Source: the human T2T-CHM13v2.0 reference genome, Homo sapiens. Taken from it: a stretch of 64,000 bases of DNA. A program made the translations under genes and the position numbers. Within the stretch, counting starts at the first letter, position 1, and each line of letters opens with the position of its first letter. Of this stretch, positions 487-48,293 are shown piece after piece. The notes below the pieces were generated by a model. The model was not told where the DNA came from, searched no databases, and saw nothing but the letters and a program-made list of their open reading frames with translations. The DNA lies in NCBI GenBank assembly GCA_009914755.4, contig CP068257.2:38528001-38592000 (forward strand), read 5' to 3'.

Positions 487-820
<334 letters not shown>

Positions 821-7789: not shown

Positions 7790-9230
7790 CACCATGATGA
7801 CCACCACCACCAATCAATGCTTACCACCTCTGCAGGTCACTGTCACCACTGCCAACATCAATGCCACTCCCTCAGGTCCCCCACACAGCCAAGCCACCAC
7901 CATCACTACTACCATCTTTACCACCATCATCACCACCAGCTTCATCTCTGTCAAAAATACTGTGAACACCACCACCACCAGCAATAGCATCTCTACCACT
8001 GACATCACCAACATTACAACCACCAGTATCAACATCACTGCCATAAAATTAACCTAATGGTAGAAGCACCTCTATCACTTCTTCCAACTTTACCACCATA
8101 TTTATCACAAACTTCACCAACAAACCACACTTTAACCTCCACTACTTCCATCATCATCCTTGATGTTACCACCATCACTGTCACTAAAAAGATGCTTCAC
8201 TTTATCACTATCCCAAAACCAACAACACTATCACCACCACCATCCATCACTCAATCACTATCCCAACACCAACACAACTATCACCACAACCATCCATCAC
8301 TCCATTACTATTCCAATATTAACATCACTACCACCGCAAATATCCATCACTCCATCACTATTCCAACACCAACATTGCCATCACCACAACCATCCATCAT
8401 TCCATCACTATCCCAACACCAATATCACTATCACCACAACCATCCATCACTCCATCACTATCCCAACACCAATATCACTATCACCACCACCATCCGTCAC
8501 TTCATCACTATCCCAATACCACCATCACTATCACCACCACCATCCATTACTTCTTCACTATCCCAACACCAACACCACTGTCACCACAACATCCATCACT
8601 CCATCACTATCCCAACACCAATACCACTGTCACCACAACATCCAATACTCCATCACTATCCCAACACCAACAGCACTGTCACCACAACATCCATCACTCC
8701 ATCACTATCCCAACACCAACACCACTGTCACCACAACATCCATCACTCCATCACTATCCCAACACCAACACCACTGTCACCACCACCATCCATCGCTCCA
8801 TCACTATCCCAACACCACCGTCACTATCACCACCACCATCCATCGCTCCATCACTATCCCAACACCACCATCACTATCACCACCACCATCCATTACTTCT
8901 TCACTATCCCAACACCAACACCACTGTCACAACATCCATCGCTCCATCACTATCCCAACACCAACACCACTGTCACCACCACCATCCATCACTCCATCAC
9001 AATCCCAACACCAACACCACTGTCACCACAACATCCATCACTCCATCACAATCCCAGTGCCAACATCACTATAACGACAACCATCCATTATTCCATCACT
9101 ATCCCAACACCAATATCACTATCACCACAACCATCCATCATTCCATTACTATCCCACACCAACATGAATGCCACCACAATGACCACAACTACTACTACCT
9201 CTACCACCTCCACTTCCACTTATTGAACAC
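7790..9230. repeat. G-poor, strand-asymmetric C/A/T minisatellite of about 1.4 kb; core 8190-9180 has about 20 copies of a 49-57-bp unit TCACCAC(A/C)ACATCCATCACTCCATCACTATCCCAACACCAACACCACTG
   Basis: The periodicity is visible in the raw sequence, with a 49-bp shift between 8581 and 8630. Units are interspersed with CACCACCACCATCC variants. The plus strand is almost devoid of G over 1 kb. It produces the spurious His/Pro/Thr/Ser-rich ORFs at 8057-9226 and 8160-9074. Confidence 0.9.
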
Positions 9231-13325: not shown

Positions 13326-13447
13326 TCCTTTCCTCTCCTCTCTCCTTTCTTTCCTCTCCTTTCTTCTTCCTTCCTTCCTTCCTTCCTCCCTTCCTTTCCT
13401 TCCTTCCTCCCTTCCTTTCCTTCCTTCCCTCTTTTTCTTTTATTTTT
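13326..13447. repeat. (TTCC)n/(CTTCC)n polypyrimidine microsatellite, equal to (GGAA)n on the minus strand, continuous with the tail of the minus-orientation Alu at 13448-13738
   Basis: The sequence is TCCTTTCCTCTCCTCTCTCCTTTCTTTCCTCTCCTTTCTTCTTCCTTCCTTCCTTCCTTCCTCCCTTCCTTTCCTTCCTTCC... It lies directly 5' (on plus) of the Alu poly-T. Confidence 0.9.
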
Positions 13448-41644: not shown

Positions 41645-43455
41645 CCACCACGGACAGGAGGGAGGGACAAGAGAAACTGTGGACAGGACGGAGGCACCGG
41701 AGAAACTGTGGACAGCAGAGGCCAACAGAGAAACCGTGGACAGGAGGGAGGTACCAGAGAAACTGTGGACAGGAGGGGCCAGCAGAGAAACCGTGGACAG
41801 AACGGGCCACCAGAGAAACCGTGGACAGGAGGGGGCTACCAGAGAAACCGTGGACAGGGGGGGGTTACCAGAGAAACCGTGGACAGGGGGGGGTTACCAG
41901 AGAAACCGTGGACGGGAGGGGGTTACCAGAGAAACCGTGGACGGGGGGGCTACCAGAGAAACCGTGGACAGGAGGGGGTTACCAGAGAAACCGTGGACGG
42001 GGGGGGGGGGTTACCAGAGAAACCGTGGACGGGGGGGGGGGGTTACCAGAGAAACCGTGGACGGGGGGGCTACCAGAGAAACCGTGGACGGGGGGGGCTA
42101 CCAGAGAAACCGTGGACGGGGGGGGGGTTACCAGAGAAACCGTGGACGGGGGGGGGGTTACCAGAGAAACCGTGGACGGGGGGGGGGCCACCAGAGAAAC
42201 CGTGGACGGGGGGGGGTTACCAGAGAAACCGTGGACGGGGGGGCTACCAGAGAAACCGTGGACGGGGGGGGGTTACCAGAGAAACCGTGGACGGGGGGGG
42301 GTTACCAGAGAAACCGTGGACAGGAGGGGGTTACCAGAGAAACCGTGGACGGGGGGGGTTACCAGAGAAACCGTGGACGGGGGGGGCCAGCAGAGAAACC
42401 GTGGACAGAACGGGCCACCAGAGAAACCGTGGACAGGAGGGGGTTACCAGAGAAACCGTGGACAGGAGGGGGTTACCAGAGAAACCGTGGACAGGAGGGG
42501 GTTACCAGAGAAACCGTGGACAGAACGGGCCACCAGAGAAACCGTGGACAGGAGGGGGGTACCAGAGAAACCGTGGACGGGGGGGGTTACCAGAGAAACC
42601 GTGGACAGAACGGGCCACCAGAGAAACCGTGGACAGGAGGGGGGTACCAGAGAAACCGTGGACGGGGGGGGTTACCAGAGAAACCGTGGACAGAACGGGC
42701 CACCAGAGAAACCGTGGACAGGAGGGGGGTACCAGAGAAACCGTGGACAGGAGGGGGTTACCAGAGAAACCGTGGACGGGGGGGCTACCAGAGAAACCGT
42801 GGACGGGGGGGGGTTACCAGAGAAACCGTGGACGGGGGGGGGTTACCAGAGAAACCGTGGACAGGAGGGGGTTACCAGAGAAACCGTGGACGGGGGGGGT
42901 TACCAGAGAAACCGTGGACGGGGGGGGCCAGCAGAGAAACCGTGGACAGAACGGGCCACCAGAGAAACCGTGGACAGGAGGGGGTTACCAGAGAAACCGT
43001 GGACAGGAGGGGGTTACCAGAGAAACCGTGGACGGGGGGGGTTACCAGAGAAACCGTGGACAGAACGGGCCACCAGAGAAACCGTGGACAGGAGGGGGGT
43101 ACCAGAGAAACCGTGGACGGGAGGGGGTTACCAGAGAAACCGTGGACAGGAGGGGGTTACCAGAGAAACCGTGGACGGGGGGGCTACCAGAGAAACCGTG
43201 GACAGGAGGGGGCTACCAGAGAAACCGTGGACAGGAGGGGGCTACCAGAGAAACCGTGGACGGGGGGGGCCACCAGAGAAACCGTGGACGGGGGGGCTAC
43301 CAGAGAAACCGTGGACGGGGGGGGGTTACCAGAGAAACCGTGGACGGGGGGGGTTACCAGAGAAACCGTGGACGGGGGGGGCCACCAGAGAAACCGTGGA
43401 CGGGGGGGGTTACCAGAGAAACCGTGGACAGGAGAGGCAACAAGAGAACCTGCGG
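41645..43455. repeat. G-rich minisatellite/VNTR of about 1.8 kb, about 60 copies of a 28-30-bp unit ACCAGAGAAACCGTGGAC(A/G)GG(A)G(n)TT with G-runs of 5-12
   Basis: Direct reading shows the unit ..CCAGAGAAACCGTGGACAGGAGGGGGTTACCAGAGAAACCGTGGACGGGGGGGGTTA.. repeated head to tail. Variants are GCCACCAGAGAAACCGTGGACAGAACGG and ..GGGGGGCTACC... The array decays into diverged copies at both edges (41645-41800 and 43430-43470). It causes stop-free ORFs in all three plus-strand frames in the track (749/658/555 aa). Confidence 0.95.
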
Positions 43456-46400
43456 ACAGGAGATGGCCCCCACAGGAACAGACTCTGAAGGGCAGGCTGC
43501 CTTCCAAGGAAGGGAATAAAGGGAGGCAACAAACTGCAGACGAATCTGCTGGAGGTCCCCAGACAATATGCTCGAAGGGATGTTAAAGGTGGCCTTGGGT
43601 CCTTGTAGGGGAGAAGCAGTAGTCCCTGGGAATCAGAAAATATGGCAACCAAGGCAACCTGTGTAATTGCCACCTATGGGAGAAGAAGAATGTTCCAGAT
43701 AAGGAAGGGACAGCTTCACTGTGCCTGTGCCCGCTCAGATGACGCCTCTGGTGCTGCCACTGGGCATGACCAGAGTTAGGGGGGCAGGAGATGATGACAG
43801 GAGATACAATAACAAGGACTTGGGGTGTTCAGTGTTTCCTGGAAAAGAGTAAACCAAGGAAAGTCATCTGTTGTCAAATCCTGGGAGGACTGTCATTTGG
43901 CCAAAGGGTTAAGAGGTGGGAGGAGAGACACTGGATCCAGGAAGGTCTATTTTGGTGCAATAAATGTAAGAACTTGTAGCAGTCACAGCTGGCCAAAGGC
44001 AGAGCTGTGCTCCCTGGGTTAGTGAGTTTCTGTTTCTCGGATTGTTCAAGCATAGAGTGAATGGTCACTTGCAGAAGTTCTTTCTGTTACGAATGTGAAG
44101 TACTTTAATACATTGGTTATATGCTGCTTTCTTTGAAAATTAATGAAAAGGAAAGGAAAACTTTTGGGGGGATAATTTCACCGTTGCCTAAAACAGATGT
44201 TGAGAGTCAACAATTTGACTAATGGTTATTATGAGTCTCGTATACATGTCAGGCACTATGAGGGGCACAGGGACATAGCATAAGGTTTGTCAGAGACAAT
44301 TCCAGCCCTCAGGGCTCACTATGGCCCATAGGGGGACAACTGTTCAGTGGGGTGCAGATAGTAAATTAATAGTCACAAGCCCACCAAGTGTTCCAAGACA
44401 TGCTATGAATAGTGAAGGGGAATAGGTAGTCAGGGAAGGCTTCCTGGAAGAAGTGACATTTAGGCTGTTATTAATACTTGAAGGATCAGTTTTCTATGTA
44501 CTCAGTCTAAAACTACACTCACTTAAATTATGGTTGTAATTTTTATACACCAAAAATTTCTGGAGGAAGAAACTAATACATGAAAAATCTGACTAACACA
44601 ACTCGTACAGCAGTGAGTACAGGTGCTATCTACTCTCAGCACAGCTCCTTCCTCCCAGGGCTTCCAAACTGAAAGTAATTGAAGTTCTGTAGGGTCCTGG
44701 TAGAGACCTTGGTCATGGACTTGGATCTGCTTGTCCTGTGGGCTTTTCTCCTGGGACCCATGCTGCCCCTTAAAATGACTTGCTCCAGGGCTACATAAAC
44801 ATCTTAGCCACACCACTGGCCCTGTCTCTGGTTGAAGTAGGGCATGAAGGATGGAAAAGAGTATCCCTCAATCCCGCCTGTACTCAGCTTTATAGACAAG
44901 GAGCTTTCCTGCTTTGGTTATATAAACCATGATCAATTTATACATTTAAAGATGCTGTTGATAATAATGATTCTTAGATTTCAATTGCATGTAAATTAAT
45001 GCAATAAACATTTACAGTATGCTCTTCACTTGACATTGTGCTGGGTGCTGGGGATCCCAGGACACAGAGAACCAGAGTCCCTGCCTTTGGGAAACTCCTG
45101 GGTAAGAGTAGGGAGATAGTGAGGACACTTAGATGCTGAGTAAGTAGTTTAACACAGAGGGTTTTAGAGGCATTTTACTCCTAAGTATTTTCCTGCATGC
45201 TGGAGCAATCTACAAGCTACCACCTATTAGATGTTGAGTATGCTCCAGACAACGAGGAAGGCGTTTTCAATGTCTTCCCTTCTTAGAGTTCACCAATTTC
45301 CATTGAGTGTCTCCACATGTTGGGTGCGGTGCTGGGTGTTGGAGAAATGAGCTGGGTGAAAATAGACCTACTAGGTGCAGGGAGCCCCCAAGGAGCCTCT
45401 AGCGTGGTGGAGGTGAAATGCATTAATCAGCATATTTGTCAGTAATCATAGAGATACATATATAGTGACCCATAATGCCACCTGCCCAGATTGAAAGGGA
45501 GAAGGAGCTGGGTGAGCACCTGAGAATTGAGATCTATGGAGGGGGTAGTAACTGGGTGGCTCAGGGAAGGGAGGACTCCAGGCAGAGGGCAGCTGGTGGC
45601 CTTTGTGGTCTCCTTGCCAGTCCTTTGAGGTGGATGCAGCAGTGCCCACTTCACAGGTGAGATGCGCAAGCGAGGGTGCAGAGCTGGTGCAACGCAGGCC
45701 CAGCAGCGAATCCCACACAGGCTGGGTCCCAAATCACTGAGCCCAGGCCTGCCACCAGCATCCGGCAATGCCCGCTCCTCCATGAGGACAGGGGAGGTCC
45801 TGGGCTGCTCCAGTAGGAGAGGTCTCCTGTGTGCTCCCGCACCAACAGCATGGGCAGCCTGCAGCCCCATAGCCAGTGCGCAGCCAGTGAGATAAAGGGC
45901 TGTCCCTGTCCCCACGGTGCTCACTGCATCTGTCTGAGCTCTCATCACTGTCACTAAGTTCCAGGACAGTTTCTGCTCAAATGTGCCTGCCTCACCTAAG
46001 AAGCATTTGCTTCACTTCAAGACCTGTATACATGAACTTGTAAGAAAGGCAAGGTCAGCCTCTCCTCCCTGGGCCCTTGGGAAACCTGTTGGTCCTAGTC
46101 CCCAAAAGATGCTTGTTCAGCTCAGCACTGTCTTGGGTGAGCCCCCCAGGTCACTGTGCCTCACCCCTGAGCCCAGGGCCCTGGCTCTGCAGCATTTCTT
46201 GGCTACGGTGAGACTTGCAGTCCAATCAACCCCGGAAGGCCCTTCCTCAGACTTTGTGTAAGTGACACCTCACTTCTAGGCCCCCAGTTGCAACTCAGAG
46301 GCCGATGACCTGAGCCATTCCATCTTTCCTCATGTGCATTTCCAACCCAGCAGTCACAGATACTACTTTTCAAAACACTATTTTTTGTTTTGATCCATAT

Positions 46401-47356
46401 CTTCTCAATCTTCAAATTCTGTTCTCCTGAATTCCCGAAGAGTCACCCCTCGGCTTGCCTTTGCAGTCACCATTTCCTGGCTCTGTTCCTGGCTTGCTCT
46501 TGCTGAAACATTTCCTCACTCCTGACCTGTGGTTCCCAGCTGCCTTGAGCTTGATTTTTTACTACAGCTTTAGTGCCAAAGATATTAGATGGGTCACAAC
46601 TGGGTAATCTGAAATAACGTGCGGTATCCAGGAAGTGAAAAATAAAGCTGCTTTTGCGGCCTAGAAGGATTTTATTAACCCTTCCCATGCTGGTGGTGCT
46701 CGAATTCCTCATATCTTTTATGAGACACAGTAAAAATTCTGACTAGAGGCCACTGTGGTGGTATTCTACCCTCGCCCAATGCATCATAAAGTTCAAAATG
46801 GCCCGGGCATTGTTCCTTGAAGGCAATGAATGGGCACACCTGCAGCGGCCCTGGCAGCAGGGTCAGTTTTATTTATGGGCTCTGGGCCGAGTGGTCCTGG
46901 GTGCAGCAGCCAGTGTCGCCGATGGTCCCTGAGCATTTCCAGGAGGTTGCTCCAGAGTGAATTTTCCTTTTTCTGCACCAACCACCACTGCACAGTTTAT
47001 CCGACCAACACCAAGCACAGCTTGAGCTCAACGCTCTGGGTGCAGGACATGGGCTCAGGCTCTACAAAAGTCACCCAGCTCGGGAAACGGGAAGTGAAGG
47101 GAGCAGGTGAAATAGAAAAGGTCATGGTGGGGGCCTGTCTCCATCAGCCACTGCCCACATGCCAACAGGAAGCTGCAATATCAAGGAGTCCAGCAGGAAG
47201 CAAGACTGAAGTCTGGGCTGGCTAAAAAAGAAAGAAGCAGAGCTGAGCCTCAACACGAAACTCCACTCCCACAGCAGAAAGCCAGGATGTGCTTCCAGCA
47301 AGGAGACTGGGGGAAGTGGTGCCCTCTGAGCTCCTGTGAGCTGAGCTGTGCGCTTA

Positions 47357-47665
<309 letters not shown>

Positions 47666-48179
47666 TTAGACAAGAACAGAAGCTTTTTATTTGGAAGCAT
47701 TTTCTTTTTCCTAATCACATTTTAGGGAAGAGAAATTCCACTTTCCCAAGACTTCCAATTTTCATAGCCCTTAAGAACTGGACCAAGCCTGGAGGATATA
47801 AAATGTCACGATTCTAGTTTGGATCTCTAACTCAAAACATATTTTGGCCCCAAATGTTAAACTTCCCTTTCATTCTGGTCATCTAGTACATGGATTCCTA
47901 AAATTGAGCAAAGAAATTCCACCGCTGTACTTGTGTGCATGTGGCTTGACTGTCATGGGCTTGTCATCTTGACTGGTTCCTCTAAGGGCTTCGTTCCCTG
48001 TTTGGGGGCTTTACTTTGACATAATCCCAGGCACTGCAAAATTCTGCTTTAGCACTGACATTATACATATTCAAAATTTCCTGGGAATTAGGAAGTGTTA
48101 CATGGCAAGTTGAGGACACAGAGATGCCTGAGGCTGAGCATACAGCTCCCATCCTGAAATGACTGTGTTTATTCTCTTA

Positions 48180-48293
<114 letters not shown>

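What the first reader, a model, noticed from the sequence alone, without database searches (positions are those of the whole stretch)
41645..43455. A G-rich minisatellite of about 1.8 kb, with 28-30-bp units carrying variable poly-G runs, in the intron that splits FN3-1
About 60 head-to-tail copies of ACCAGAGAAACCGTGGAC(A)GG(A)GGGGGTT were counted by eye. In most copies the G-run varies between 5 and 12 Gs. This looks like replication slippage layered on unit-number variation, so the locus is very likely hypervariable in both unit count and homopolymer length, and hard to sequence or assemble. Reference copies may be collapsed. The G-rich strand is the template strand for DSCAM, so the pre-mRNA carries the C-rich complement. 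Dense G-tracts on the template could form G-quadruplex or other non-B structures that impede Pol II or replication within this roughly 9-kb intron. Because the period is not a multiple of 3, all three plus frames are stop-free and yield the RGG/'PEKPWTGGG' pseudo-peptides in the track. I do not recognise this as a described VNTR.
Basis: seen in the sequence. Interest (0 to 1): 0.6.

Follow-up and report, generated by a model that had tools for sequence, protein, structure and literature searches.

The report
G-rich minisatellite in a DSCAM intron
A real 1.8-kb tandem array of 63 G-rich 27-32-bp units lies deep inside a DSCAM intron; it is an ordinary, probably length-variable minisatellite whose sequence gives only weak support for the proposed G-quadruplex roadblock.

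Summary
TRF finds one array at 41652-43462 (period 29, 63.3 copies, 89% matches). It has 63 units of 27-32 bp, and 50 of them carry a G-run of 5-12.

The context is also correct. The array lies mid-way in a 9,156-nt phase-1 intron (38281-47436, minus strand) that splits the first FN3 domain of DSCAM. The G-rich strand is the template strand.

What the sequence adds:
- An invariant 14-mer (59/63 units) sits next to a hypervariable G-tail.
- Both single-step intermediates between AGGAGGGGG and G9 are present.
- The edge units are decayed (CpG>TpG).
- An exact 281-bp (about 10-unit) block is duplicated 541 bp away.
- The composition is CpG-island-like (100 CpG, o/e 0.64).

Where the interpretation weakens:
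- There is no canonical G4 motif (loops up to 12 nt).
- G4Hunter averages 0.84.
- Only the two G12 runs offer three short-loop G-triplets.
- With the G-rich strand as template, the nascent RNA is C-rich, which should disfavour sense R-loops (established knowledge, not measured here).
- Hairpin folding is weaker than in shuffled sequence.

Hypervariability is likely but could not be tested, because no other allele or orthologue was reachable. Verdict: a new member of a known kind, of low-moderate interest.

The parts
41652..43462 (+). The minisatellite array: 63 head-to-tail units of 27-32 bp. The G-rich strand is the + strand (G 43.6%, C 19.7%, GC skew +0.38).
   Evidence: TRF period 29, 63.3 copies, 89% matches; unit list; composition.
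41671..41812 (+). Degenerate left-edge units 1-5. Three of the first four units have ACTGTGG in place of ACCGTGG (CpG>TpG decay).
   Evidence: Edit distance to the consensus is 6, 7, 2, 5, 5. Non-consensus 14-mers occur only in units 1, 2, 4 and 63.
41813..43415 (+). Homogenised core of 56 units (units 6-61). All carry the exact 14-mer GAGAAACCGTGGAC followed by a variable 13-18-nt G-rich tail.
   Evidence: The 14-mer is exact in 59/63 units. There are 21 tail variants, and the unit map is NOPQBGHHIDAJJDRKKSEDEEACLBAAABFCBFCBFADEEACLBAACBFIADGGMDECMCTU.
43416..43475 (+). Degenerate right-edge units 62-63.
   Evidence: Edit distance 5 and 8; unit 63 reads GAGAACCTGCGGAC.
42212..42492 (+). First copy of an exact 281-bp (about 10-unit) internal duplication.
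   Evidence: Exact 281-bp match at a shift of 541 bp. The repeat finder gives 98% identity over 300 nt for 42180-42479 versus 42721-43020. Unit identity at lag 19 is 0.25 against 0.07 when permuted.
42753..43033 (+). Second copy of the exact 281-bp internal duplication.
42497..42748 (+). Three-unit (85-bp) higher-order repeat, unit types B-F-C repeated three times.
   Evidence: Exact 167-bp match at a shift of 85 bp; TRF period-85 row.
41999..42042 (+). The two adjacent G12 runs (41999-42010 and 42031-42042). These are the only places where three G-triplets with single-nucleotide loops can be drawn.
   Evidence: Regex count; G-run series.
38281..47436 (-). Host intron: 9,156 nt, phase 1. The 5' splice site is CAG|GTAAGT and the 3' end is AAAG|AC. 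The array begins 3,974 nt from the 5' splice site and ends 3,371 nt from the 3' splice site, taking up 19.8% of the intron.
47437..47565 (-). Upstream exon (129 nt) encoding the N-terminal half of FN3-1 (…[42 protein letters not shown]).
   Evidence: AG/GT borders; Pfam fn3 profile positions 3-39.
38113..38280 (-). Downstream exon (168 nt) encoding the C-terminal half of FN3-1 ([12 protein letters not shown]…ELTITADEA).
   Evidence: AG/GT borders; Pfam fn3 profile positions 42-83. The joined exons give fn3 with E = 1.9e-15.

Best explanation
This is an ordinary GC-rich, strand-asymmetric minisatellite lying deep in a DSCAM intron. I expect it to be a neutral by-product of tandem-duplication dynamics with no sequence-specified function.

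How it arose and changes (shown = read directly from the sequence; inferred = my interpretation):
1. A roughly 29-bp unit, GAGAAACCGTGGAC-AGGAGGGGGTTACCA, was amplified head to tail (shown).
2. The array is kept homogeneous in its centre and decays at its edges, as expected for unequal exchange, replication slippage or gene conversion acting on whole units and multi-unit blocks. The pattern is shown; the process is inferred.
3. Two A>G transitions in the tail fuse AGGAGGGGG into an uninterrupted G9. Both single-step intermediates, AGGGGGGGG and GGGAGGGGG, are still present (shown).
4. Once fused, the homopolymer changes length by slippage, giving runs of G7 to G12 (inferred from the spread of lengths).
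5. Blocks of units, with their particular G-run lengths, were then copied as a whole: an 85-bp three-unit repeat and an exact 281-bp block 541 bp apart (shown). Block turnover has therefore been faster than G-run slippage or CpG decay.

Consequences I expect but could not test: the array varies in copy number between haplotypes, it is hard to place with short reads, and it is heavily CpG-methylated gene-body DNA. Any effect on DSCAM would be a weak, length-dependent side effect.
For: - Tandem architecture and purity.
- Invariant 14-mer in 59/63 units, with all deviants at the two edges, three of them CpG>TpG.
- Twenty-one tail variants. These include type A (AGGAGGGGG, 10 units), H (AGGGGGGGG, 2), I (GGGAGGGGG, 2) and E (G9, same 29-bp length, 6), plus length variants of G7, G8, G10 and G12.
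- Exact internal repeats of 281 bp (shift 541) and 167 bp (shift 85).
- Unit identity at lag 19 is 0.25 against 0.07 in 2,000 permutations, none of which reached the observed value.
- CpG o/e is 0.61-0.74 in every 200-bp window of the core, against 0.22 in the rest of the window. This fits young or continually homogenised units.
- No sign of another role. The spurious 749-aa ORF has no relative among 5.8 billion proteins. No Rfam family lies in or near the array. Both strands fold worse than shuffled sequence, z = +3.7 for RNA and +2.7 for DNA. No complementary copy of the unit exists elsewhere in the 64 kb. The array lies more than 3.3 kb from either splice site.
Against: - Neutrality is an argument from absence. 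No population, expression, methylation or chromatin data could be consulted.
- Weak G4-type motifs are strongly enriched: 47 two-tetrad motifs against 11 ± 2.7 in composition-matched shuffles, and 13 '1-long-1' three-tetrad candidates against 0.4.
- The array meets the compositional CpG-island criteria.
- The host gene is dosage-sensitive in the nervous system (my own knowledge). A length-dependent effect in cis therefore cannot be excluded.
- The origin of the founding unit was not tested. No transposable-element library was available, so it could be unique sequence or an internal repeat of a mobile element.
Confidence: 0.78

Rival explanations
1. Non-B DNA barrier. G-quadruplexes form on the G-rich template strand and slow Pol II or replication forks inside the intron. 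This would make DSCAM output, or the stability of the locus, depend on array length. It resembles the G-rich VNTRs handled by ATRX, or the CEB1/CEB25 minisatellites.
For: - Strong G richness and skew: G 43.6%, skew +0.38.
- 31 runs of G7 or longer, 20 of them paired with a neighbour exactly about 20 nt away. This allows three-tetrad G4s with 1-20-1 loops: 13 non-overlapping candidates against 0.4 in shuffles.
- 47 two-tetrad within-unit motifs. ViennaRNA with G4 energies places one in almost every unit.
- A single long loop flanked by two short ones is an accepted G4 class, as cited in PMC5491262.
- G-rich VNTRs can depress nearby genes in a size-dependent way (PMC13018553).
Against: - No canonical motif with loops up to 7 or up to 12 nt. 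G4Hunter averages 0.84, with only 20% of windows at or above 1.2 and 4% at or above 1.5.
- In yeast, minisatellite instability needed three G-triplets with single-nucleotide loops, and lengthening the loops stabilised the array (PMC5491262). Here that arrangement exists only in the two G12 runs, no more often than in shuffles (2 against 2.9 ± 1.6).
- The ψζ VNTR is 96% GC with G4-forming (CGCGGGGCGGGG)n units. This array is 63% GC.
- The sense transcript is C-rich, and R-loops favour G-rich RNA (my own knowledge). Transcription-coupled G4/R-loop formation from DSCAM transcription is therefore disfavoured.
Confidence: 0.1
2. RNA-level cis element. The roughly 60 C-tracts (C5-C12) in the unstructured intronic RNA would recruit poly(C)-binding proteins such as PCBP1/2 or hnRNP K. 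Alternatively, the repeats would pair with another part of the pre-mRNA, as the 38-bp VNTR in TERT intron 6 does. Either way, splicing or processing of the long DSCAM pre-mRNA would be tuned by repeat number.
For: - The pre-mRNA-sense array has 51 C-runs of 4 or more, up to C12.
- It is predicted to be less folded than shuffled sequence (z = +3.7), so the tracts would be accessible.
- A deep-intronic VNTR more than 1 kb from the junctions controls TERT splicing once nine or more repeats are present (PMC3948165 abstract).
Against: - No complementary copy of the unit (up to 3 mismatches in 18) exists on the other strand anywhere in the 64 kb. An RNA:RNA-pairing partner is therefore absent locally.
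- Protein binding is pure conjecture from composition.
- The flanking exons are constitutive halves of one FN3 domain joined in phase 1, so skipping either one would shift the frame.
- The 5' splice site is already a perfect consensus, CAG|GTAAGT.
Confidence: 0.05
3. Internal tandem-repeat region of an old transposable element, expanded in place. The array would then be one member of a dispersed family instead of a locus-specific minisatellite.
For: Many human minisatellites derive from mobile-element sequences (my own knowledge). The origin of the founding unit was not established here.
Against: - The unit occurs nowhere else in the 64-kb window on either strand.
- The flanks show only decayed copies of the same unit, with no Alu-like or other recognisable repeat ends next to the array.
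- The unit string appears in no searchable paper.
Confidence: 0.05
4. Sequencing or assembly artefact. The array length, or the G-run lengths, would be errors: a collapsed or expanded assembly, or homopolymer miscalls.
For: Exact internal repeats of 281 bp and 167 bp, and runs of G8-G12, are the kind of sequence that short reads and some long-read chemistries handle badly.
Against: - The array has an orderly biological structure: decayed edges, a homogenised core, and block duplications in which ten successive G-run lengths are reproduced exactly. Random homopolymer error would not reproduce them.
- The flanks join normal intron sequence.
Confidence: 0.02

Closest known systems
Classical GC-rich human minisatellites (Jeffreys-type VNTRs)
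   Same: - Unit length of 10-100 bp, array length in the kb range, head-to-tail order, and strong purine/G strand asymmetry.
- Interspersed unit variants that give a 'minisatellite variant repeat' map.
- Homogenised centre with degenerate ends.
- Twenty units contain GTGGACAGGAGG. This differs at one position from the core GTGGGCAGGARG as I recall it from Jeffreys et al. 1985. The pattern GTGGNCAGGANG occurs 20 times in the array and not at all elsewhere in the window.
   Different: - It is interstitial and deep-intronic, whereas many classical hypervariable loci are subtelomeric.
- Its variability is not demonstrated here.
- The PRDM9 13-mer CCNCCNTNNCCNC occurs only twice in the array.
- Fused poly-G runs up to G12 inside the unit are an unusual extra layer.
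G4-forming minisatellites CEB1 and CEB25 (Pif1- and Phen-DC3-sensitive in yeast)
   Same: G-rich tandem units. Like CEB1, the array lacks the canonical G3N1-7 consensus yet has long G-runs that could adopt non-canonical folds (PMC5491262).
   Different: CEB1 instability needs three G-triplets with single-nucleotide loops in every unit, and longer loops abolish the effect. Here only two of 63 units (the G12 runs) can provide this. The other candidates have a roughly 20-nt loop or only two tetrads.
ψζ-globin VNTR and other ATRX-bound G-rich tandem repeats
   Same: A transcribed, intronic, G- and CpG-rich VNTR. The known mechanism is size-dependent and acts in cis on gene expression (PMC13018553).
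   Different: The ψζ repeat is (CGCGGGGCGGGG)n, 96% GC, with demonstrated G4 formation and R-loops. This array is 63% GC with 20-nt A-rich spacers, and its G-rich strand is the template of the host gene. ATRX binding is unknown.
TERT intron 6 38-bp VNTR (splicing control by RNA:RNA pairing)
   Same: A deep-intronic VNTR far from the splice junctions whose repeat number matters (PMC3948165 abstract).
   Different: No complementary partner sequence was found in the window. The intron here separates two constitutive, frame-linked halves of one domain.
Compositional CpG island
   Same: 1.6 kb in which every 200-bp window has GC of at least 0.60 and CpG o/e of 0.61-0.74. There are 100 CpGs in 1,811 bp.
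   Different: The CpGs are there only because each repeated unit carries one or two. Nothing suggests a promoter, and the methylation state is unknown.

Membership tests
Minisatellite / VNTR | Head-to-tail tandem array of units about 10-100 bp long | tested here: met
   TRF period 29, 63.3 copies; 63 units of 27-32 bp.
Minisatellite / VNTR | Array length of roughly 0.1-30 kb with interspersed unit variants | tested here: met
   1,811 bp; 21 tail variants; unit map.
Minisatellite / VNTR | Copy number varies between individuals (the 'variable' in VNTR) | not testable with these tools
   No second allele or orthologue was found. Pattern scans of metagenome, genome and viral contigs returned nothing, and the ORF-based protein search returned nothing. 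Recent block duplications make variation likely but do not show it.
Minisatellite / VNTR | Jeffreys-type G-rich core motif (GGGCAGGARG, recalled from memory) | tested here: inconclusive
   GTGGACAGGAGG is present in 20 units. It is one mismatch from the recalled core. The pattern with that position left free occurs 20 times in the array and 0 times elsewhere.
G4-forming minisatellite (CEB1/CEB25 type) | Each unit carries at least three G-triplets separated by short (3 nt or less) loops | tested here: not met
   Only 2 sites, the G12 runs at 41999 and 42031. Composition-matched shuffles give 2.9 ± 1.6. There is no canonical motif with loops up to 12 nt.
G4-forming minisatellite (CEB1/CEB25 type) | High G4 propensity score (G4Hunter of at least 1.5 over the unit) | tested here: not met
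   Mean 0.84, maximum 1.96; 4% of 25-nt windows reach 1.5.
G4-forming minisatellite (CEB1/CEB25 type) | G4 formation in vitro, and helicase- or ligand-dependent instability in vivo | not testable with these tools
   This needs biophysics (CD, UV melting, NMR) and a yeast pif1Δ/Phen-DC3 assay.
ATRX-type G-rich VNTR (ψζ-like) | Very GC-rich, CpG-containing tandem repeat with a G4-forming unit | tested here: inconclusive
   CpG-rich (o/e 0.64), but GC is 63% against 96% for ψζ. Only weak or long-loop G4 candidates are present.
ATRX-type G-rich VNTR (ψζ-like) | Transcription produces G-rich RNA and R-loops over the repeat | tested here: not met
   The host gene is on the minus strand. The sense RNA over the array is C-rich, since GC skew is +0.38 on the + (template) strand. 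Antisense transcription was not assessable.
ATRX-type G-rich VNTR (ψζ-like) | ATRX occupancy and a size-dependent effect on the neighbouring gene | not testable with these tools
   No ChIP or expression data are available. The supplement of PMC13018553 is not held as text.
CpG island (compositional definition) | More than 200 bp, GC above 50%, CpG observed/expected above 0.6 | tested here: met
   GC 63.3%, 100 CpGs, o/e 0.64. All eight 200-bp windows from 41800 to 43399 pass.
CpG island (functional) | Unmethylated in the germline, with promoter-type chromatin | not testable with these tools
   No methylation or chromatin data.
Splicing-regulatory intronic VNTR (TERT intron 6 type) | Repeat RNA is complementary to another segment of the same pre-mRNA | tested here: not met
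   No reverse-complement match of the 18-mer (up to 3 mismatches) in the 64 kb. Folding is weaker than shuffled sequence. Only 64 kb of the gene could be examined.
Protein-coding repeat (RGG-like) | An ORF on a transcribed sense strand, with homologues | tested here: not met
   The stop-free frames are antisense to DSCAM. They have no relatives among 5.8 billion proteins. They are stop-free simply because no stop triplet occurs in the unit.

The most novel reading that the evidence does not exclude
The array is a length-polymorphic, CpG-dense, weakly G4-prone VNTR whose allele size tunes DSCAM output in neurons. The effect could run through ATRX or helicase handling of the G-rich strand during replication or antisense transcription, through repeat-length-dependent methylation, or through poly(C)-binding proteins loading on the C-rich intronic RNA. 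It would then be a hidden, SNP-untagged source of variation in a dosage-sensitive neurodevelopmental gene on chromosome 21.
Probability: 0.06. Interest if true: 0.6.

Novelty: new member of a known kind. Interest (0 to 1): 0.2.

Why it matters
As it stands, this is mostly a technical flag. The 1.8-kb array contains exact internal repeats of up to 281 bp and homopolymers up to G12. Short-read calls, methylation calls and 'CpG island' annotation there should be treated with caution, and array length should be genotyped only from spanning long reads.

It would matter biologically only if array length turned out to correlate with DSCAM expression or methylation. DSCAM dosage is implicated in Down-syndrome and autism-related phenotypes (my own knowledge), and large VNTRs are poorly tagged by SNPs.

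The sequence also gives a clear example of how a minisatellite acquires long homopolymers. Two transitions fuse neighbouring G-blocks, and both intermediates are still present in the array.

Tried and rejected
1. Looking for other alleles or orthologues:
- Exact-pattern scans for TTACCAGAGAAACCGTGGACNGG in metagenome contigs and genome contigs returned 0 hits.
- A two-unit gapped pattern built from the invariant 14-mer returned 0 hits in metagenome, genome and viral contigs.
- I searched the 749-aa spurious ORF spanning the array against 5.8 billion predicted proteins, hoping gene callers had called it on human or primate contigs. Of 8,000 word candidates, none was significant.

2. Literature:
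- DSCAM + VNTR, DSCAM + minisatellite, and DSCAM + tandem repeat + intron + long-read found nothing on this locus. The one VNTR paper that matched 'DSCAM' refers to DSCAML1.
- The unit string appears in no paper.
- The adVNTR-NN supplement has no DSCAM entry.
- The PNAS human-specific repeat paper is not held.
- A DOI I recalled for another VNTR paper turned out to belong to an unrelated paper.
- Two further papers have no supplements held as text.

3. Ideas tested and dropped:
- PRDM9 hotspot motif enrichment: only 2 sites in the array.
- Hairpin or cruciform structure: both strands fold worse than shuffled sequence.
- A hidden RNA gene: Rfam gives only an Alu-type SRP hit at 655-804.
- A coding reading of the RGG-like frames: rejected.
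- CTCF-like reading of CCACCAGAGAAAC: by eye only the first 7 bases fit the recalled motif. I did not pursue it.
Full report

Yes. Tandem Repeats Finder reports one array at 41652-43462, with period 29, 63.3 copies, 89% matches, 3% indels and score 2456. Its alternative periods of 85 and 114 reflect three- and four-unit higher-order structure.

Cutting the region at the conserved anchor yields 63 units: six of 27 bp, 22 of 28, 29 of 29, three of 30 and three of 32. The 18-mer ACCAGAGAAACCGTGGAC, with up to 3 mismatches, occurs 62 times. Every match is inside the array and on the + strand, where shuffles of the window give 0.05.

The longest G-run per unit is 5-6 in 19 units, 7-12 in 31 units and below 5 in 13 units.

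All three plus-strand frames are stop-free. The true reason is that TAA, TAG and TGA never occur on that strand of the array. The period not being divisible by three is not the cause.

**2. Context**

The window is primate DNA, with eight close matches to an Alu consensus segment. Minus-strand stop-free segments contain Ig and FN3 exon pieces.

The exon at 47437-47565 (129 nt) is preceded by CACAG and followed by GTAAGT. The exon at 38113-38280 (168 nt) is preceded by AAAAG and followed by GTACGT. Joined in frame, they read [54 protein letters not shown]…ELTITADEA.

Pfam scores the joined peptide as one fibronectin type III domain (E = 1.9e-15). Profile positions 3-39 come from the first exon and 42-83 from the second.

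A neighbouring Ig exon piece is 64/64 identical to PDB chain 6zr7, 'Down syndrome cell adhesion molecule'. The next FN3 is only about 80% identical to the DSCAML1 structure 1va9. The gene is therefore DSCAM, not its paralogue.

The intron runs from 38281 to 47436 (9,156 nt, phase 1) and has a consensus 5' splice site, CAG|GTAAGT. The array starts 3,974 nt from the 5' splice site, ends 3,371 nt from the 3' splice site, and fills 19.8% of the intron. Because the gene is on the minus strand, the G-rich plus strand is the template and the pre-mRNA carries the C-rich complement.

**3. Anatomy**

Each unit has two very different halves. The 14-mer GAGAAACCGTGGAC is exact in 59 of 63 units. The four deviants are units 1, 2, 4 and 63, at the two ends, and three of them read ACTGTGG, which is a CpG-to-TpG change. 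The remaining 13-18 nt form a G-rich tail with 21 variants.

The commonest tail is AGGAGGGGGTTACCA (10 units, giving a 29-bp unit). The tail with an uninterrupted G9 has the same length (6 units). Both single-substitution intermediates are present: AGGGGGGGG (2 units) and GGGAGGGGG (2 units). Around G9 lie the length variants G7, G8, G10 and G12.

The simplest reading is that two A>G transitions fused neighbouring G-blocks into a homopolymer, which then changed length by slippage.

The unit map is NOPQBGHHIDAJJDRKKSEDEEACLBAAABFCBFCBFADEEACLBAACBFIADGGMDECMCTU. It shows a three-unit block (BFC) repeated three times and a nine-unit string (DEEACLBAA) present twice.

At base level there is an exact 281-bp repeat at a 541-bp shift (42212 and 42753) and an exact 167-bp repeat at an 85-bp shift. 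The repeat finder gives 98% identity over 300 nt. Unit identity at a lag of 19 units is 0.25, against 0.07 in 2,000 permutations, none of which reached the observed value.

Ten consecutive G-run lengths are thus reproduced exactly in the duplicated block. This argues that the lengths are real and heritable rather than read noise. It also argues that block duplication has been more recent than slippage in those runs.

**4. Composition**

The array is 63% GC, with G at 43.6%, C at 19.7% and T at only 7.9%. It holds 100 CpGs, for an observed/expected ratio of 0.64. The rest of the window has a ratio of 0.22.

Every 200-bp window from 41800 to 43399 has GC of at least 0.60 and CpG o/e of 0.61-0.74. 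The array therefore satisfies the compositional definition of a CpG island and may be annotated as one.

The core units (5-62) all retain their 14-mer CpG, and decay is seen only at the edges. This suggests recent amplification or ongoing homogenisation.

A rough figure follows from a CpG transition rate of about 1e-7 per site per generation, which I recall from memory. On that rate, independent survival of all these CpGs becomes unlikely (below 5%) after a few million years. This is an order-of-magnitude inference, not a measurement.

**5. The G-quadruplex idea**

No canonical motif (four runs of G3 or longer) with loops up to 7 nt or up to 12 nt lies in the array. With loops allowed up to 21-25 nt, 9-15 candidates appear. 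G4Hunter (25-nt windows) averages 0.84, with 20% of windows at or above 1.2, 4% at or above 1.5 and none at or above 2.0.

Three kinds of arrangement can be drawn:
- **Within-unit two-tetrad motifs**, of the type GG-AC(A)-GG-N-GG-N-GG. There are 47, against 11 ± 2.7 in composition-matched shuffles and 0.6 per kb in the rest of the window. ViennaRNA with G4 energies (RNA parameters, used as a proxy) places such a fold in most units of the four 87-119-nt segments I folded.
- **Three-tetrad folds across two neighbouring G7-or-longer runs**, with loops of 1, about 20 and 1 nt. There are 13 non-overlapping candidates against 0.4 in shuffles, and 20 adjacent run pairs about 20 nt apart.
- **Three G-triplets with single-G loops.** These exist only inside the two G12 runs at 41999 and 42031, which is no more than in shuffles (2 against 2.9 ± 1.6).

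The best experimental guide is the work on the human CEB1 and CEB25 minisatellites. In vivo instability required three G-triplets separated by single-nucleotide loops, and lengthening the loops stabilised the arrays. Only a subset of sequences that fold in vitro had an effect in vivo (PMC5491262). By that yardstick most of this array is a weak G4 former.

The best-studied transcription-linked case is the ψζ-globin VNTR. It is (CGCGGGGCGGGG)n, 96% GC, and acts through G4s and R-loops that ATRX normally suppresses (PMC13018553). Here GC is 63%.

In addition, the sense RNA is C-rich. From established knowledge, R-loops favour G-rich RNA on a C-rich template, so this is the unfavourable orientation. 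A Pol II roadblock from DSCAM transcription is therefore not well supported. A replication-associated effect of the longest runs cannot be excluded.

**6. Other readings tested**

- **Hairpin structure.** It is weaker than in shuffled sequence on both strands: RNA sense strand z = +3.7, DNA G-strand z = +2.7. The C-rich RNA should therefore be open, with 51 C-runs of 4 or more. Binding by poly(C)-binding proteins is conceivable but untested.
- **RNA:RNA pairing.** No reverse-complement copy of the unit exists in the 64 kb. A TERT-intron-6-style pairing mechanism (PMC3948165, abstract) has no local partner.
- **PRDM9 motif.** The 13-mer occurs only twice in the array.
- **Jeffreys-type core.** Twenty units carry GTGGACAGGAGG, one mismatch from the classical minisatellite core as I recall it.
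- **RNA genes.** Rfam finds nothing near the array.
- **Coding.** The long antisense ORFs have no relatives among 5.8 billion proteins.

**7. What could not be done**

The tools hold no vertebrate genomes. Every attempt to find another allele or an orthologue failed. I found no paper or held supplement that mentions the locus.

Three things therefore remain untested: length polymorphism, evolutionary age, and any association with expression or methylation. The origin of the founding unit (unique sequence or mobile element) was also not testable.

**8. Verdict**

The thing is a typical GC-rich, strand-asymmetric minisatellite in a deep-intronic position. It shows clear internal signs of recent block turnover, and it illustrates how homopolymer runs arise inside repeat units.

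It is very probably length-polymorphic and awkward for short reads. This is an inference. I put the probability at about 0.85, based on general knowledge of arrays of this size and purity.

The proposed G4/Pol II barrier is only weakly supported by the sequence. I classify the array as a new, undescribed member of a known kind, with low-to-moderate interest (0.2).

The most novel reading not excluded is a length-dependent cis effect on DSCAM dosage. I give it a probability of about 0.06.

Noticed in passing
window 8197-9165: A second sizeable minisatellite: period 50, 19.6 copies, 87% matches, C/A-rich on the + strand (so G/T-rich in the DSCAM pre-mRNA). It lies in the large intron between the exon pieces at about 3.9 kb and 26.3 kb, and it also produces long stop-free + frames.
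   Followed up: no
window 41800-43399: The array meets the compositional CpG-island criteria in every 200-bp window (GC of at least 0.60, o/e 0.61-0.74, 100 CpGs in total). It may therefore be annotated as an intragenic CpG island although it is only a repeat.
   Followed up: partly
window 41652-43462, minus (pre-mRNA) strand: In the transcript sense the array carries 31 copies of GGTAAC (a weak 5'-splice-site-like string) and only 14 AG dinucleotides, where composition predicts about 28. Cryptic-splice or decoy potential was not assessed.
   Followed up: no
window 655-804: An Rfam Metazoa_SRP hit scoring exactly at the gathering threshold (70 bits). It lies next to an Alu-consensus match at 531-564, so it is an Alu-type SINE and not an SRP RNA gene.
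   Followed up: partly
window 38371-38395: An uninterrupted A25 run on the + strand (T25 in the pre-mRNA), about 90 nt upstream of the acceptor of the FN3-1 C-half exon. The acceptor itself has an A-rich stretch between its pyrimidine tract and the AG.
   Followed up: no
window 27379-27470; 22244-22286; 34951-35021; 15464-15514; 13347-13428: Small repeats: a 30-bp repeat x3.1 (91% matches), two (AC)n tracts, one (AG)n tract and one (TTCC)n tract. All are ordinary intronic micro- or minisatellites.
   Followed up: no
window about 48170-48270, minus strand: A short exon encoding the second half of Ig9 ([32 protein letters not shown]) lies between the Ig9 first-half exon (about 49.3-49.5 kb) and the FN3-1 N-half exon. 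Ig9 is therefore also split by an intron.
   Followed up: partly
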